Virus record (IMG/VR): IMGVR_UViG_3300037067_007848
Coordinates: 32,001-96,000 of that record
Strand: one strand, 5' to 3'
From: a virus
Lineage: Duplodnaviria > Caudoviricetes
DNA length: 64,000 bases
In this document: positions 563-6,388 of the stretch, in pieces
Layout: each line of letters opens with the position of its first letter
Position numbering within the stretch: position 1 is the stretch's first letter
Position numbers and translations under genes: made by a program
Notes under the pieces: generated by a model
What the model saw: the letters and a program-made list of their open reading frames with translations, nothing else
Told to the model about the DNA's origin: nothing
Database searches by the model: none

Positions 563-1111
563 ATGTTAGAAAAAGAAGATATTAAATTAATTAAAAATAT
601 TGTGTCCGAAATAGTATTAGCGAAAATACCCACTAATACCCAAATTAAAAAACCACGGAAAAAAGCCGTTAAAAAAGTTGTCAAAAAATCAGTAAAAGCA
701 CCAAAAACATCCAAAAAAATAACGACACAAAAAAAATCACCCAATATTATATCTCCTCAACCAATTCGTTTAAATGGAAAAAGAGAAGGAATAAATAATC
801 GAGTTAATAGGGCTAGTGAATTAGAGGGGAGGGGGCATAATTATGGCCGAACTGAGGCATTTCAATTTGTAAAAAATCGCCCCAATCTTTTCCTATCTAG
901 TGACGTGCGAAATATGCACAAAGAAGACGTTAAAATAGATAAAATATTAAATAAAAACAAACAAACAATACAAAGGCGTGAGGCGGTCCAAATGTATTCA
1001 GTTGATTGTATCCGATGTGGCAAAGAATTTGTTGTTACATACGATATAATTCCATTTGATGCCGAAACAAACGAACCAAACTATATTTGCGATAGTTGTG
1101 TAAGGAGATAA
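563..1111 (+). CDS. Basic Lys-rich protein with C-terminal zinc ribbon
   Basis: KKPRKKAVKKVVKKSVKAPK stretch; CIRC...CDSC at the C-terminus; AGGAG SD upstream. Confidence 0.75.
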   Translation: MLEKEDIKLIKNIVSEIVLAKIPTNTQIKKPRKKAVKKVVKKSVKAPKTSKKITTQKKSPNIISPQPIRLNGKREGINNRVNRASELEGRGHNYGRTEAFQFVKNRPNLFLSSDVRNMHKEDVKIDKILNKNKQTIQRREAVQMYSVDCIRCGKEFVVTYDIIPFDAETNEPNYICDSCVRR

Positions 1112-2579: not shown

Positions 2580-3728
2580 ATGAAAAATAAATTTATTGAA
2601 CAGGAAAAATTATATGCCATATCAATTAATATTATGGCAAGGATTGAGGATATTCTACAATGTCTTGGCGTAGAATTACGGGATGGTCGAAAAATGTTGG
2701 TCGGCCCCTGTCCAATACACGGCGGGGATAAATATAACGCCTTTAATTTATATACCGAGGAAGATAGTATTGGGGCTTGGAAATGTCGCACTCATAATTG
2801 CCATCGTTATTTCGCTGGAAATATCATAGGATTTATTCGTGGCGTTTTATCAAGACAAAAGTGTGGGTGGTCAAAAAATGGGGATGAAATTTATTCATTT
2901 GCCAATACTCTAAAGTTTATCTCCGAATGCCTAAACGAAGATTTTTCTTCTATTAAAGTAAATTCGGACAAAATGGAACAACGGCGATTTATAAATTATT
3001 CACGATATTTTCAAAAATTTCAACCAATTAAAAATGGGACAACTAGGGAAGATATTCGGAAAATATTAACAATTCCTTGTCCCTATTTTATTAAACGTAA
3101 TTTTTTGCCCGAAACATTGGATTATTTTGACATTGGGACATGTAATACGCCATCCAATACTTTGTTTAATTCGTCGGTTGTCCCCATTTATGATTTAGAG
3201 AAAAAATTTGTTATTGGAACCAGTGCCCGTTCAATTTGGGAAAAATGTACAAAATGCGGGACATGGCATAACCCCAAAAGAGGTTGCCCAAATTATTTTG
3301 AAATAGATAAATATTCTAAGTGGAGACACTCAAATTTCAAGAGAAATACATCCGTTTACAATTACTGGAATGCCGCCCGCGATATTTATAGGACAAAAGT
3401 ATGTATTTTGACCGAATCACCAGGAAATGTTTGGGCATTACAACAGGCTGGATTGCCAATTGGGCTTGCGACCTATGGAACGGCATTGGACGATAACCAA
3501 ATTCGACTATTAAATATGACTGGGGCACTTTCCATAATATTAATCGGCGACAATGATAAAGCGGGACATGAATTTAACGTGATAAATACACAAAAATTGC
3601 GGTCTATGTTTGATATTCATACAATTATTCCTTGTAAAAATGATATTGGAGATATGACAATTGAGGAAATTAAACAACAAATTAAGCCAGTGTGCATCCA
3701 GTGTAAAGAAAAATGGGCGATTTTGTAA
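2580..3728 (+). CDS. dnaG: DNA primase, DnaG-like (zinc finger + TOPRIM)
   Basis: CPIHGGD...WKCRTHNC zinc-binding domain; TOPRIM LTESPGN and GDNDKAG, NDIGDM; directly follows dnaB. Confidence 0.88.
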   Translation: MKNKFIEQEKLYAISINIMARIEDILQCLGVELRDGRKMLVGPCPIHGGDKYNAFNLYTEEDSIGAWKCRTHNCHRYFAGNIIGFIRGVLSRQKCGWSKNGDEIYSFANTLKFISECLNEDFSSIKVNSDKMEQRRFINYSRYFQKFQPIKNGTTREDIRKILTIPCPYFIKRNFLPETLDYFDIGTCNTPSNTLFNSSVVPIYDLEKKFVIGTSARSIWEKCTKCGTWHNPKRGCPNYFEIDKYSKWRHSNFKRNTSVYNYWNAARDIYRTKVCILTESPGNVWALQQAGLPIGLATYGTALDDNQIRLLNMTGALSIILIGDNDKAGHEFNVINTQKLRSMFDIHTIIPCKNDIGDMTIEEIKQQIKPVCIQCKEKWAIL

Positions 3729-3735
3729 ATAATGC

Positions 3736-3763
3736 TTGACAAATGGCCGATATAGGCTATAAT
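3736..3763 (+). promoter_or_regulatory. Sigma70-type promoter (TTGACA-N16-TATAAT)
   Basis: Exact consensus -35 at 3736-3741 and -10 at 3758-3763 in intergenic DNA. Confidence 0.85.
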
Positions 3764-3772
3764 ATAGTCGTT

Positions 3773-3949
3773 AGAGCAAATGAAGTTCCTCTTTTATATC
3801 AATTGGAGATTTTTACTTCTGGCTCTTTCTTACGAGGCATAGGTAGTTCCTATTAAATATTTTTACATAATAACTTACTACCCGCCTCATTTTTTTTTAG
3901 ATTTTTAGCATAGGAAGTTCCTATATTTTTATCAATTATACTTCCCGCT
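3773..3949 (+). ncRNA. Array of three tandem bulged stem-loop elements (putative small ncRNAs): 3773-3826, 3834-3888, 3907-3949
   Basis: Each unit has the form RGC-A(W)2-3-(G)GWAGT-TCCT-AT-rich loop-TACTWC(C)-bulge-GCY; stems covary (GGTAGT/ACTACC vs GGAAGT/ACTTCC; AGAGC/GCTCT vs GAGGC/GCCTC); the array starts at the predicted TSS. Confidence 0.7.
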
Positions 3950-3968
3950 TTATTTATTTGAGGAAAAT

Positions 3969-5885
3969 ATGAATAAAGAAATTATTGCCGCAACTCTTAA
4001 TCTATTCAATGGAATTGTAATTACTAAACAAGATTATGATAAGGCATCATTATCTAAATACCTAATTTGCAAAACATTTAGAGTTTGTCTGAAAAATGGA
4101 TTTATTTTATCTCCATCAATCTATCTTCAGTATAAAAAAGATATTGTTGAAATATTATCACAAATTGACGATACTGTTGGAATTAATGGAAAAAATCTTA
4201 ACACGGCATTTCATAAATCCTGGGAAAAGGTTTGTGATTCTTCGATTGAACAATTAGTTTTAGAGCAATTTGTACATTATTTTACAACATACGGATTTGA
4301 ATCGTTAGGGATTGATAATGATATTGTCTACATTCCAACAGAAAAATTAAAAATTCCAAAAGTTAAAATAGATAGAATACCATTGACTATAATTCACGGA
4401 TATACCTTAGATGAAATTAAATCTAAAATTTCCGCCCTTCTATCTTCAGGAATTGCACTATCCGAAAAAACCATTCAAGATTTAGTTTTGTTGATTAAAT
4501 ATTACAAATTTTTTAATGCCACCGATTTAGCAAATATTAAAAATAAAGAAATACGTGTTATATTATATAAAGAATTGAATATTATTCCAGCTAACAATGT
4601 TGAATTTCTACGATTTTTAATTTACATTTCTACTGGAAAATCTTTACTTATTAAAAACAAAGAAACAATCGAAAGTATTAAGTCGGGAAGTTTAGATGTT
4701 GATGTATTTAATTGTCTTAATACATATATAAAAATGTATGGAATAGAGCGTTTAGGGGAGATATTTTACAGATTTAAACCATTATTTTTGGCTTTTAAGT
4801 TCAATGATTGTCAACCTATTATCAATAGAATACGCCGATCGGCAAAACAAAATCATAAACCATTAATACCCGATTATATTAATTCGGTAACACAACTTTT
4901 AGTCAAAGACGATTTGGATTTACATAAATTATTCAACGAACTAAAAAAAGTAAATACGTTTAGAAAGATTAAATTGTTATATGCCCTAGCCATGAGAACA
5001 ATTGACTGCGGAAGTGCCGTTTATAATATTCGCAATGGAAAGACATGGACAAAATTAGTTAAAAATAATTATTCATATGAACAGGCGTCAGAAATTTATA
5101 ATATTGTCTATTCCAATTTGGTGAATGATATTTCGCCCAATATTAAAGGAAAAAAGATTTATATCCCTAAAAATATAAAATATTCCATCCCATCCACCGA
5201 AAAACAATTTGTTGATAAAATTCCCGCTGGGACACACATTAAATTTGACAATAGAATGGTTTTTGGTGTGCATTGGGCGAATCAGGATGGGCAACGTATT
5301 GATTTAGACCTTAGTTTGTTATCTCTCAACAAAAAATTTGGGTGGGATGCATATTATCGTTCTGGTAGTGATATATTATTTTCAGGAGATATGACAGATG
5401 CACCACAACCACATGGGGCATCCGAATTATTTTCAATCAGCAATACTAACGATAAACAATTTCTAGTAAGCCTAAACTACTACAATAGAGATAATGATAG
5501 TCCGAAAATTGTGCCATTTAAGTTGTTTTTGGCCAAAACATTTGATAAAAAAATGTCACATAATTACATGGTCGATCCAAACAATATTCTTACACAGTGT
5601 AATCTTGAATTATCGAGACAACAAAAATTTATTGGATTTATCAATCGAACTGGTTTTTATTTTACCAATAGTGATTTTATTCAAGGAAGAACATTGAGAG
5701 ATAACAATCATACAAAAAATATGATTAATTATTTTGTAAAATTTTACCAGAATGCACTTAGTTTAAATTATTTATTACATGATGCGGGAGCAATTATGGT
5801 TGACAACCCAGAAGATTGTGATATTAATTTAGATTTACAAAGTATAGAAAAAGACACAATAATTAATTTATTAACAAAACCATGA
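3969..5885 (+). CDS. Large helical protein with C-terminal TerD-like domain
   Basis: C-terminal GVHW..RIDLDLS..GWDAYY..ILFSGDMTDAP..GASE resembles the TerD/TerF stress-domain signature; N-terminal FHKSW..V..EQFVHYFTTYG; GAGG SD. Confidence 0.7.
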   Translation: MNKEIIAATLNLFNGIVITKQDYDKASLSKYLICKTFRVCLKNGFILSPSIYLQYKKDIVEILSQIDDTVGINGKNLNTAFHKSWEKVCDSSIEQLVLEQFVHYFTTYGFESLGIDNDIVYIPTEKLKIPKVKIDRIPLTIIHGYTLDEIKSKISALLSSGIALSEKTIQDLVLLIKYYKFFNATDLANIKNKEIRVILYKELNIIPANNVEFLRFLIYISTGKSLLIKNKETIESIKSGSLDVDVFNCLNTYIKMYGIERLGEIFYRFKPLFLAFKFNDCQPIINRIRRSAKQNHKPLIPDYINSVTQLLVKDDLDLHKLFNELKKVNTFRKIKLLYALAMRTIDCGSAVYNIRNGKTWTKLVKNNYSYEQASEIYNIVYSNLVNDISPNIKGKKIYIPKNIKYSIPSTEKQFVDKIPAGTHIKFDNRMVFGVHWANQDGQRIDLDLSLLSLNKKFGWDAYYRSGSDILFSGDMTDAPQPHGASELFSISNTNDKQFLVSLNYYNRDNDSPKIVPFKLFLAKTFDKKMSHNYMVDPNNILTQCNLELSRQQKFIGFINRTGFYFTNSDFIQGRTLRDNNHTKNMINYFVKFYQNALSLNYLLHDAGAIMVDNPEDCDINLDLQSIEKDTIINLLTKP

Positions 5886-6388
5886 AAAATCCAAATATAA
5901 TACGTGTTGGTGATTATATTCGTATTATTAATCCTGAATTATTTGTTCGATGTGGATACCCACTTACAATTAAGGTTCAGCAAGAAGATATTGAAAAACA
6001 ATTTGGGGACGATATTCGTTTGTTAATTAATAAGGTTGGACTTCAATACACATCTTTTGCAGAAAATAAAACATTTAACGAAATTTCACAATCTCTTGCC
6101 TATTATATGGTAAAACAAAAGAAATTTGGTGGAAATGAAAGAAAAATATATACAAAAACTTGTGAAGAATTAATAGAAAATGTATATAAAGTTATTAATA
6201 TAAAAATTGTAAAAACTGGGATATATTGCGTTGGTGGATATTCTGGATATGAAGGGCAGGAATGGGAACCTGCATCTTTAGAAAATCCAAAAACTCACAA
6301 AATATTAGAATTGGATATGTTTCACGAATTTCCATTTATAGAAGATAAAAATGTCAAAAAAACAATTACTACCAAAATTGATAATTAA
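5882..6388 (+). CDS. Hypothetical protein
   Basis: 168-aa ORF, ATGA-coupled to the upstream gene. Confidence 0.7.
   Translation: MKNPNIIRVGDYIRIINPELFVRCGYPLTIKVQQEDIEKQFGDDIRLLINKVGLQYTSFAENKTFNEISQSLAYYMVKQKKFGGNERKIYTKTCEELIENVYKVINIKIVKTGIYCVGGYSGYEGQEWEPASLENPKTHKILELDMFHEFPFIEDKNVKKTITTKIDN

What the first reader, a model, noticed from the sequence alone, without database searches (positions are those of the whole stretch)
3736..5885. Candidate new ribonucleoprotein system: promoter, three covarying hairpin RNAs and a TerD-like protein
Seen in sequence: right after a perfect TTGACA-N16-TATAAT promoter are three similar units. Unit 1 (3773-3826) is AGAGC-AAAT-GAAGT-TCCT...ACTTC-TG-GCTCT. 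Unit 2 (3834-3888, followed by T9) is GAGGC-ATA-GGTAGT-TCCT...ACTACC-C-GCCTC. Unit 3 (3907-3949) is AGC-ATA-GGAAGT-TCCT...ACTTCC-C-GCT. All fold into an outer stem, an asymmetric bulge, an inner stem and a variable AT-rich loop that opens with invariant TCCT. The stems change in a compensatory way, which indicates selection on RNA structure rather than simple duplication. The cassette feeds directly into a 638-aa protein with a long helical region and a TerD-like C-terminus, inserted in the replication operon. Inference: the hairpins are small RNAs, processed from one transcript, that bind this protein. The architecture recalls Ro60/Y RNA (a bulged terminal helix as protein-binding site). The variable loops could act as guides, decoys or scaffolds.
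Basis: partly seen in the sequence, partly recalled or inferred. Interest (0 to 1): 0.88.

Follow-up and report, generated by a model that had tools for sequence, protein, structure and literature searches.

The report
Y-RNA-like hairpins with TerD-domain protein
Three small folded RNAs in front of an unstudied phage gene belong to a widespread RNA family, absent from Rfam, that almost always travels with this one protein family and in relatives carries tRNA look-alike parts, so the pair is probably an undescribed RNA-protein particle built like Ro60 with its Y RNAs.

Summary
A perfect TTGACA-N16-TATAAT promoter (3736-3763) is followed by three bulged hairpins (3772-3827, 3833-3889, 3904-3952). 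Then comes a 638-aa ORF whose C-terminus has a TerD fold.

The hairpins belong to one RNA family: G-C-closed outer stem, AYA/C bulge, 6-bp inner stem, and a loop that opens with UCCU. It is not in Rfam 15. A covariance model finds it:
- in 70 of 71 viral loci that encode a homologue, always on the gene strand (191 of 191 hits);
- in about 66 of 80 bacterial and archaeal loci;
- in cultured cyanophages S-CRM01 and S-CBWM1.

Ten of 12 pairs show compensatory changes. No other gene is consistently linked.

In relatives the same "handle" carries tRNA-like domains in three circularly permuted layouts. Complete 411-424-kb phages hold 6-8 copies, mostly in tRNA arrays far from the gene.

The protein shows no TROVE or vWA signal. 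In one Bythopirellula genome it lies beside a true Ro60 with YrlA RNAs.

Best reading (about 0.6): an RNA-protein particle analogous to Ro60/Y RNA, not homologous to it, with the copy nearest the ribosome-binding site allowing autoregulation. Binding, processing and function are untested.

Earlier agents of this scan reached the same reading on other DNA.

The parts
3736..3763 (+). sigma-70-type promoter TTGACA-N16-TATAAT. The predicted transcript start lies about 7-9 nt downstream, at the foot of hairpin 1.
   Evidence: 12/12 consensus match, the best in 12 kb. Conserved with the same spacing in L001.
3772..3827 (+). Handle hairpin 1. Divergent: 4-nt AAAU bulge, 5-bp inner stem, UG 3' bulge, loop UCCUCU.
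   Evidence: R1 35.4 bits, E 1.7e-7. Fold. Orthologous unit in L001.
3833..3889 (+). Handle hairpin 2, close to the family consensus: GAGGC-AUA-GGUAGU-UCCUAU...ACUACC-C-GCCUC.
   Evidence: R1 63.6 bits, E 1.4e-15. Fold z = -4.18.
3890..3898 (+). T9 run directly after hairpin 2. A possible partial intrinsic terminator that would release hairpins 1-2 as a short RNA.
   Evidence: Sequence. Only 31 of 171 family hairpins are followed by a T-run, so this is not a family feature.
3904..3952 (+). Handle hairpin 3. Short 3-bp outer stem; ends 16 nt before the start codon.
   Evidence: R1 37.2 bits, E 5.5e-8. Across the family the last hairpin ends a median 22 nt before the start codon.
3960..3964 (+). 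Shine-Dalgarno GAGGA of the 638-aa ORF.
   Evidence: Sequence.
3969..5885 (+). 638-aa protein (P0001). The N-terminal ~420 aa are helical and basic (pI 9.3) with no recognisable fold. No Pfam, PHROG or PADLOC family.
   Evidence: The family has 1393 clusters at 50% identity.
5241..5735 (+). TerD-fold beta-sandwich domain (residues 425-589), acidic. Conserved DLDLS and SGD-x-TDAP motifs.
   Evidence: Foldseek probability 1.00 to TerD structures. VIA Z 10.8, rmsd 2.8 over 144 residues. Conserved columns.

Best explanation
The three hairpins and the 638-aa gene are one two-part module: a structured 'handle' RNA and its partner protein.

Shown here:
- The handle is an RNA structure under selection on the sense strand. 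It has a G-C-closed outer stem, an AYA/C asymmetric bulge, a 6-bp inner stem (RRNNGU/ACNNYY), and an internal or terminal loop that opens with UCCU and closes with U.
- It accompanies this protein family in nearly every locus of phages, bacteria and archaeal-labelled MAGs. No other gene does.
- The distal end of the handle tolerates any cargo: an A/U-rich loop as here, a small hairpin, or a whole tRNA-like domain in three circular permutations.

Inferred:
- The basic helical N-terminal part of the protein binds the handle through its invariant unpaired nucleotides.
- In this phage the strong promoter makes one leader transcript. The T9 after hairpin 2, or RNase cuts, release hairpins 1-2 as small RNAs that form particles with the protein.
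- Hairpin 3 ends 16 nt before the AUG and abuts the Shine-Dalgarno sequence.

More speculative:
- By analogy with Ro60/Y RNA, and from the setting in tRNA arrays and beside RtcB and Ro60 in some genomes, the particle acts in tRNA or RNA damage control during infection, for example as a scaffold or decoy for enzymes that recognise tRNA.
For: Structure:
- 95.3% of cells paired; 10 of 12 pairs carry compensatory changes; 459 compensatory cells against 129 in shuffles.
- In the inner helix there are 18 G-U or U-G cells but only 1 non-pair. This fits RNA read from the gene strand.
- All 191 viral hits and all 102 cellular hits lie on the gene strand.

Coupling to the protein:
- 70 of 71 non-redundant viral loci have at least one hit, almost all within 500 nt upstream.
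- About 66 of 80 cellular loci have a hit. Most of the rest lack upstream sequence or carry the permuted form.
- The motif is also present with homologues only 25-28% identical, in Synechococcus phages S-CRM01 and S-CBWM1 and in Phass-1.
- An unbiased pattern scan of viral contigs recovered the motif either next to a homologue or in jumbo-phage tRNA arrays. All three near-complete (98-100%) jumbo genomes among the latter encode one homologue.
- No other protein family recurs near the gene.

Action at a distance:
- Complete 411-424-kb phages have 6-8 copies: one directly upstream of the gene, the others over 100 kb away.

tRNA-like cargo and circular permutation:
-. In 13 of 68 viral loci a T-arm lies inside a handle hairpin.

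Co-variation with the locus:
- Loop positions 5-6 are identical in 63% of within-locus pairs, against 40% in shuffles (maximum 52%). Inner stems mostly differ within a locus.

Possible role in cis:
- The last hairpin ends a median 22 nt before the start codon.

Protein:
- The N-terminal part has pI 9.3 and many conserved Arg, Lys and His residues.

Context:
- RtcB lies within 5 kb in 5 of 166 loci.
- Band_7/SPFH lies within 5 kb in a few loci: 2 of 166 by tblastn, or a 3-locus ORF cluster whose representative is a Band_7 protein.
- In L171 a true Ro60 with two YrlA hits lies 1.8 kb from the gene.
Against: - There is no direct evidence of binding, of processing into small RNAs, or even of transcription. 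No RNA run holds this DNA.
- The N-terminal domain has no recognised RNA-binding fold.
- TerD domains are not known to bind RNA.
- This phage has only plain hairpins with no tRNA-like cargo, and all three are in the mRNA leader. For this window alone, a purely cis-regulatory role would suffice.
- Within-locus similarity of loop nucleotides could partly reflect local duplication; stems are also slightly more alike within loci.
- The RNA-repair context is present in only about 3% of loci.
Confidence: 0.6

Rival explanations
1. A purely cis-acting leader. The hairpins are a 5' UTR element that stabilises the mRNA, attenuates transcription (hairpin 2 plus T9) or serves as a translational operator. 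It would be bound by the encoded protein or a host factor, with no independent small-RNA function.
For: - At least one copy lies directly upstream in nearly all loci, and the last copy ends a median 22 nt before the start codon.
- The transcript from the perfect promoter would start at the foot of hairpin 1.
- T9 follows hairpin 2.
- In this phage all copies are in the leader.
Against: - Complete jumbo phages carry 5-7 further copies over 100 kb from the gene.
- Copies lie downstream of the gene in L121, L073, L067, L071, L082, L132 and Phass-1.
- tRNA-like cargo and circular permutation make no sense for a leader.
- Only 18% of hairpins are followed by a T-run.
- Up to 7 tandem copies are more than an operator needs.
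Confidence: 0.15
2. RNA-processing signals. The handle marks cleavage sites in polycistronic tRNA or mRNA transcripts. It would be cut either by the 638-aa protein acting as a dedicated endonuclease or maturase, or by itself as an undescribed small self-cleaving ribozyme.
For: - Handles flank or enclose tRNA-like units and lie between tRNA genes.
- Circular permutation is typical of small ribozymes (general knowledge).
- There are about 12 conserved unpaired nucleotides.
- The gene sits inside tRNA clusters in S-CRM01 and S-CBWM1.
Against: - No match to any Rfam ribozyme, even at E <= 10.
- The protein has no recognisable nuclease fold or motif.
- Most handles enclose no tRNA, and the enclosed ones are non-decoding mimics: tetraloop or odd anticodon loops, capped acceptor stems.
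- The window's phage has its 4 tRNA genes elsewhere, without handles.
Confidence: 0.12
3. A type III toxin-antitoxin-like pair. The tandem RNA units neutralise the protein, as ToxI repeats neutralise ToxN, and the terminator after unit 2 sets the RNA:protein ratio.
For: The layout promoter, RNA repeats, T-run, protein gene resembles toxIN (toxIN from general knowledge). The module is self-contained and moves between genomic contexts.
Against: - The units are not near-identical repeats; their stems differ and they vary in length.
- Many loci have a single copy.
- Copies are dispersed in jumbo phages.
- No similarity to ToxN, AbiQ or CptN, and no PADLOC family.
- The family is common in lytic-type phage genomes, inside tRNA clusters.
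Confidence: 0.05
4. A DNA-level element: operators, iterons or recombination sites recognised as double-stranded DNA, for example through the near-palindrome ATAGGAAGTTCCTAT.
For: - Units 2 and 3 contain a 15-bp near-palindrome.
- The site lies next to replication genes in this phage.
- From memory, GAAGTTCCTATA resembles an FRT half-site.
Against: - The left half of the palindrome (GGA, GGT) varies freely and covaries with the distant 3' strand, not with TCC.
- G-U pairs are tolerated on one strand only.
- The strand is always that of the gene.
- The link to replication genes is not conserved.
Confidence: 0.02

Closest known systems
Ro60/Rsr (TROVE + vWA) with bacterial and phage Y RNAs (YrlA, YrlB, Yrn1; Rfam RF02553; Chen et al. 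2014, PMC4201824)
   Same: - A ~550-650-aa protein whose gene is flanked by one to several small structured RNAs.
- The RNA has a conserved stem (the protein-binding handle) joined to a tRNA-like domain with D-arm, T-arm and a capped acceptor-like stem.
- Found in bacteria and phages, sometimes beside RtcB.
- In L171 the two systems are neighbours.
   Different: - No TROVE or vWA signal: Pfam on 61 members; hhalign probability 0.6% against a true Ro60.
- The C-terminus is a TerD beta-sandwich, not vWA.
- The handle sequence differs: AYA bulge and UCCUAU here, GNCGAA in YrlA.
- The YrlA model does not hit the window although it finds RNAs beside the true Ro60.
- Many handles carry no tRNA-like part.
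- Up to 7 tandem copies.
SPFH/Band-7 modules with a tRNA-like RNA in RNA-repair operons (Burroughs and Aravind 2016, NAR 44:8525; recalled from memory, the paper could not be opened here)
   Same: A proposed scaffold protein plus a cognate tRNA-like non-coding RNA next to RtcB. A Band_7 gene and RtcB lie beside the module in L177.
   Different: A different protein fold. Band_7 is a neighbour in only 2-3 loci, not the partner.
MXAN_6230/SCO0854 family RING-domain proteins (NCBIfam NF041916; Pfam Prok-RING_4)
   Same: The ESM Atlas structure search aligns 590 of 638 residues (TM 0.73 by query). There is weak sequence similarity in the TerD part (E 1.8e-7).
   Different: The bacterial proteins are 840-990 aa with a RING domain that is absent here. 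The score is 29.7 bits against a cut-off of 600. Their function is also unknown, and whether they have handle RNAs was not tested.
Type III toxin-antitoxin systems (ToxIN; general knowledge)
   Same: Promoter, tandem structured RNA units, T-run, then the gene of the protein thought to bind them.
   Different: The units are not identical repeats. Single and dispersed copies occur. The protein is unrelated to ToxN-type endoribonucleases.
Translational operators bound by the encoded protein (MS2 coat protein operator, T4 RegA and gp32, ribosomal-protein leaders; general knowledge)
   Same: A hairpin with conserved unpaired bases abutting the ribosome-binding site of the gene.
   Different: Operators are single and purely cis-acting. 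Here copies are tandem, dispersed, permuted and loaded with tRNA-like domains.

Membership tests
Ro60/Rsr-Y RNA ribonucleoprotein | Protein has a TROVE (HEAT-repeat ring) domain | tested here: not met
   - No TROVE hit at E <= 1 in any of 61 family members, and none in the virus record.
- hhalign of the family profile against a true Ro60 from L171: probability 0.6%.
- No Ro60 chain among the listed top-50 fold matches for the whole model or the N-terminal model. The fold-level result alone is inconclusive.
Ro60/Rsr-Y RNA ribonucleoprotein | C-terminal vWA domain | tested here: not met
   Residues 425-589 are a TerD-type beta-sandwich (Foldseek probability 1.00; VIA Z 10.8). The Pfam vWA_Ro60 model hits the true Ro60 of L171 and L223 but not this family.
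Ro60/Rsr-Y RNA ribonucleoprotein | Partner RNA matches the Y RNA/YrlA models (GNCGAA-type motif in the stem) | tested here: not met
   No Rfam hit in the window at gathering score or at E <= 10. Positive control: the YrlA model gives E 1.4e-9 and 4.8e-5 beside the true Ro60 in L171. YrlA motif from PMC4201824.
Ro60/Rsr-Y RNA ribonucleoprotein | Small structured RNA genes adjacent to the protein gene | tested here: met
   70 of 71 viral loci and about 66 of 80 cellular loci have handle RNAs next to the gene, on the same strand.
Ro60/Rsr-Y RNA ribonucleoprotein | At least one partner RNA carries a tRNA-like domain | tested here: inconclusive
   Met in relatives: Rfam tRNA scores of 45-62 bits for chimeras, and three permuted layouts. 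In 13 of 68 viral loci a T-arm lies inside a handle. Not met in this window, whose three loops are plain.
Ro60/Rsr-Y RNA ribonucleoprotein | Protein binds the RNA stem | not testable with these tools
   Needs EMSA, RIP or a structure.
TerD family (Pfam PF02342) | TerD beta-sandwich fold | tested here: met
   2qz7_B: Z 10.8, rmsd 2.8 over 144 residues. 2kxt: Z 10.1. Foldseek probability 1.00 to 2qng, 3ibz and 2qz7.
TerD family (Pfam PF02342) | Match to the TerD sequence profile | tested here: not met
   No PF02342 hit at E <= 1 in 61 members. Only a feature-level lead in the ESM Atlas.
MXAN_6230/SCO0854 RING family (NF041916) | Score above the curated cut-off, and a RING domain | tested here: not met
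   29.7 bits against a cut-off of 600, covering residues 427-489 only. No RING or Prok-RING_4 hit.
Type III toxin-antitoxin (ToxIN-like) | Near-identical tandem RNA repeats of fixed length | tested here: not met
   The units differ in stems, loops and length: 49-57 nt here and 40-128 nt in relatives. Within-locus stems are identical in only 10% of pairs.
Any Rfam 15 family | Covariance-model match | tested here: not met
   0 matches at gathering score in 64 kb. Only chance-level hits at E <= 10 in 3700-4000.
Intrinsic terminator or attenuator | Stem directly followed by a U-run | tested here: inconclusive
   Unit 2 is followed by T9. Only 31 of 171 family hairpins have a T-run within 10 nt, and the scan tool did not call it because the loop is too long.

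The most novel reading that the evidence does not exclude
The module is a new class of modular 'handle-and-cargo' ribonucleoprotein of phages and prokaryotes, unrelated by descent to Ro60/Y RNA. One protein family reads a permutable RNA handle, and the handle displays exchangeable cargo, from bare loops to full tRNA mimics. Phages would use it to capture, decoy or redirect host enzymes that act on tRNA (anticodon nucleases, repair ligases, modification enzymes) during infection.
Probability: 0.3. Interest if true: 0.92.

Novelty: new variant of a known kind. Interest (0 to 1): 0.85.

Why it matters
Scale: the protein family is large, with 1393 clusters at 50% identity and over 2000 hits. It occurs in phages of many habitats, in bacteria and in archaeal-labelled MAGs. 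It carries no annotation, and its RNA partner is absent from Rfam 15.

If the pair is a ribonucleoprotein, it is a second, independently evolved solution to the Ro60/Y-RNA design: a protein-binding stem plus a tRNA mimic. That would help answer what tRNA mimicry in such particles is for.

It would give phage tRNA clusters a new, testable component. It would explain 'empty' intergenic stretches and spurious small ORFs in cultured phages such as S-CRM01. It would also give TerD-fold domains an RNA-linked role.

The handle tolerates circular permutation and arbitrary cargo, which could make it useful as an RNA scaffold tag.

Cultured phage-host systems (Synechococcus phages S-CRM01 and S-CBWM1) make the idea directly testable.

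Tried and rejected
- Rfam at gathering score and at E <= 10: nothing relevant.
- tRNA scan of the window: none.
- Single-protein scan of viral contigs found no relatives because the patterns were too specific. The alignment-based scan worked.
- blastn to cultured phages gave only a 172-nt, 69% match to Staphylococcus phage methyltransferase genes (window 3676-3847, spanning the primase 3' end, the promoter, hairpin 1 and the start of hairpin 2). I took this to be compositional.
- PDB sequence searches with the protein and with the profile: nothing.
- Fold searches of the whole model and of the N-terminal 425 residues: only the TerD domain is recognised. The botulinum-toxin rows have TM below 0.1 and are noise. 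Helical matches have Z <= 6.8, within the background for helical proteins.
- PADLOC: no defence family.
- Guide hypothesis: the longest exact match of each loop elsewhere in the phage genome is 13 nt; shuffled loops give a mean of 12-13 and a maximum of 16. Host targets could not be tested.
- tRNA-intron idea for the tRNA genes with 44-48-nt inserts: removing the handle helix leaves about 21 nt, not a 7-nt anticodon loop. The permuted forms have no free acceptor ends. They are therefore mimics, not split tRNAs.
- Palindromic DNA operator and FRT-like site: rejected by covariation.
- My first partner-swap control for pairing was uninformative. Tandem neighbours and G-U tolerance gave 118 of 205 by chance. 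It was replaced by the model-based count.
- Conserved neighbouring genes: none.
- Expression data: no RNA holder listed.
- Literature searches found no description of this RNA or protein.
- Burroughs and Aravind 2016 could not be opened.
Full report
**What is in the window.** The window is part of a 121-kb, 34.9% G+C virus record (about 80% complete, from groundwater and landfill metagenomes) with four tRNA genes elsewhere.

Around the finding lie:
- a DnaB-type helicase (1113-2579);
- a primase (2580-3728);
- the 240-nt non-coding stretch in question;
- a 638-aa ORF (3969-5885);
- then a DNA methyltransferase and a dNMP kinase.

The stretch starts with the only perfect TTGACA-N16-TATAAT in 12 kb (3736-3763). 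Three hairpins follow at 3772-3827, 3833-3889 and 3904-3952. A T9 run follows the second, and GAGGA lies 4 nt before the ATG. The 206-nt leader folds better than all 200 shuffles (z = -4.06).

**The hairpins belong to a large RNA family.**
- The closest relative of the ORF (66% identity, L001) is syntenic. It has the same promoter and the same three hairpins, with compensatory stem changes.
- A 43%-identical homologue on a 361-kb contig, with unrelated neighbours, has one hairpin of the same design directly upstream.
- An exact-pattern scan of viral contigs that ignored proteins returned 47 loci. About ten had a homologue right downstream. Ten more showed the complete motif inside tRNA arrays of very large phages. 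The rest looked like chance.
- From 69 clean instances I built covariance model R1.
- In the window and in the whole virus record, R1 finds only the three units, at 35-64 bits.
- In 71 non-redundant viral loci that encode a homologue, R1 finds 191 copies, all on the gene strand. Seventy of the 71 loci have at least one; the exception has no upstream sequence.

On the 150 best hits:
- 95.3% of cells pair;
- 10 of 12 pairs carry changes on both sides;
- there are 459 compensatory cells, against 129 in shuffles and 32-70 when the partner is slid by 1-3 columns.

This alignment is fitted to the model, which favours pairing. The slid controls and the 53 distinct inner-stem sequences found by a separate structure-based scan of my own, which required full inner-stem pairing, point the same way. 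G-U pairs are tolerated, while A-C is almost absent in the inner helix. This points to RNA read from the gene strand.

Invariant features:
- the C-G pair closing the outer stem;
- the last A of the AYA bulge;
- the U-A pair closing the inner stem;
- UCCU;
- the U before the 3' strand.

Nothing in Rfam 15 matches.

**The protein.** P0001 has no Pfam, PHROG, PADLOC or PDB-sequence match. Its family is nevertheless very large: 1393 clusters at 50% identity, and over 2000 hits in the 90% collection.

The AlphaFold2 model built on 61 homologues is confident (pLDDT 90.5, pTM 0.90):
- Residues 425-589 are a TerD-type beta-sandwich.
- The basic (pI 9.3) helical N-terminal 420 residues match nothing above background, whether searched in the whole model or alone.

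Full-length structural relatives exist in Campylobacter and Lactobacillus phages. Among bacteria, they are the uncharacterised MXAN_6230/SCO0854 RING proteins.

**Only the RNA travels with the protein.** Clustering all ORFs in 68 viral and 80 cellular loci shows no other recurrent neighbour.

The family also occurs in cellular genome assemblies, with 199 matching stretches, including chromosome-level MAGs and Ktedonobacter racemifer. There too, all 102 R1 hits are on the gene strand, just upstream.

In cultured phages the gene (S-CRM01 g174, S-CBWM1 gp22) sits in the middle of the tRNA gene cluster. Handles lie beside the gene in S-CRM01 and S-CBWM1; in Phass-1 five lie about 1.3 kb downstream.

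**The handle carries cargo and is circularly permuted.** In many relatives the variable loop is replaced by a tRNA-like domain. Three layouts share one secondary structure:
- (A) The ends lie at the handle, and the tRNA body is permuted with its acceptor stem capped by a tetraloop (L079, L108, L084, L060, L098, L057, L116).
- (B) The ends lie at the acceptor stem, as in a tRNA, and the handle is capped by a triloop and replaces the anticodon loop (L095, L111, L090, L119, L129, L065, L118). These score 45-62 bits with the Rfam tRNA model, with a 44-48-nt insert.
- (C) The handle encloses a tRNA-like unit with an encoded ACCA and a tetraloop or odd-sized anticodon loop (L010, L011, L118).

None can decode, so they are mimics. 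This is the design of bacterial Y RNAs of the YrlA type (PMC4201824).

Complete 411-424-kb phages carry one gene and 6-8 handles. One handle is directly upstream of the gene. The others lie over 100 kb away, mostly in tRNA arrays. The RNA therefore cannot be only a leader.

**Relation to Ro60.** No TROVE or vWA signal was found, and the handle differs from the YrlA motif.

In the Bythopirellula chromosome (L171) the following lie within 6 kb:
- the P0001 homologue with its own handle;
- a PcfJ-like gene;
- a true Ro60 (TROVE + vWA_Ro60);
- two YrlA-like RNAs.

So the two systems are distinct and can be neighbours. RtcB lies within 5 kb in 5 of 166 loci. Band_7 lies within 5 kb in a few (2 by tblastn; a 3-locus ORF cluster). 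These are hints of an RNA-repair setting, not a rule.

**Mechanism.** Coupling and structure are shown. Binding is inferred from four observations:
- the exclusive co-occurrence;
- the basic N-terminal domain;
- invariant unpaired bases;
- locus-specific variants of loop positions 5-6, shared by the hairpins of a locus although their stems differ (63% against 40% in shuffles). Local duplication may contribute to this.

The last hairpin ends a median 22 nt before the start codon, and 16 nt here. This suggests autoregulation of translation. The T9 after unit 2 could release units 1-2, but T-runs are not a family trait.

The loops show no above-chance complementarity to the phage genome, so I found no support for a guide role. 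No RNA-seq data exist for this DNA.

**Earlier notes of this scan.** Several follow-up agents reached the same reading on other genomes. I reproduced the main points independently: the coupling, the tRNA-like cargo and the RtcB neighbourhood. The 'ROT/TROVE-like' label in some first-reader titles was not supported by my tests.

**Verdict.** This is a real, widespread RNA-protein module that I found described nowhere. It works like Ro60/Y RNA in design but is not a member of that family. The biochemical function is unknown.

Noticed in passing
L139 3791-3937 (Synechococcus phage S-CRM01, NC_015569.1 132391-132537): The annotated antisense ORF g173c overlaps one of the two handle hairpins upstream of g174 (3815-3878) and lies 3' of the other (3747-3807). 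It is probably a spurious call over an RNA gene.
   Followed up: partly
L079 2840-2965; L095 2802-2912; L010 3605-3720: One RNA architecture (handle plus tRNA body) occurs in three circular permutations in different phages. Natural circular permutation of a tRNA-like non-coding RNA is unusual in itself.
   Followed up: yes
L171 4934-11117 (Bythopirellula sp. chromosome OZ245849.1): The TerD-domain module and a true Ro60 (TROVE + vWA_Ro60) with two YrlA-like RNAs and tRNA genes lie in one 6-kb island, separated by a PcfJ-like gene.
   Followed up: partly
L177 2454-6854: RtcB ligase, handle hairpins, a tRNA-like chimera (4797-4909) and the TerD-domain gene lie in a row, with a Band_7-like ORF upstream and a tRNA array downstream. 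It may be a prophage-borne RNA-repair island.
   Followed up: partly
L064 2490-2990: Seven handle hairpins in tandem upstream of one gene, the largest array seen. L084 also has seven.
   Followed up: no
L141 6005-6471 (Phage Phass-1, genetic code 15 clade): Five handles lie about 1.3 kb downstream of the homologous gene rather than upstream, in a phage that reassigns a stop codon.
   Followed up: no
variable loops of family hairpins, e.g. L064, L083, L085, L090, L095: A subset of variable loops forms 3-4-bp mini-hairpins with 7-nt loops of the anticodon-loop pattern YU-NNN-R-N: 7 of 158, against 0-1 in shuffles.
   Followed up: partly
window 5882-6388: A 168-aa ORF whose start overlaps the stop of the 638-aa gene (ATGA) has no family in Pfam, PHROGs or NCBIfam. 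It is not conserved next to homologues elsewhere.
   Followed up: partly
window 563-1111: A 182-aa ORF before the helicase ends in a CxxC-type zinc-ribbon (weak Pfam hits only). It may be a helicase loader or a primase-associated zinc finger.
   Followed up: no
P0001 residues 427-489: Weak but significant similarity (E 1.8e-7), plus a full-length structural match (TM 0.73), to the uncharacterised MXAN_6230/SCO0854 RING-domain family of Actinomycetota and Myxococcota. Whether those genes have handle RNAs is unknown.
   Followed up: no
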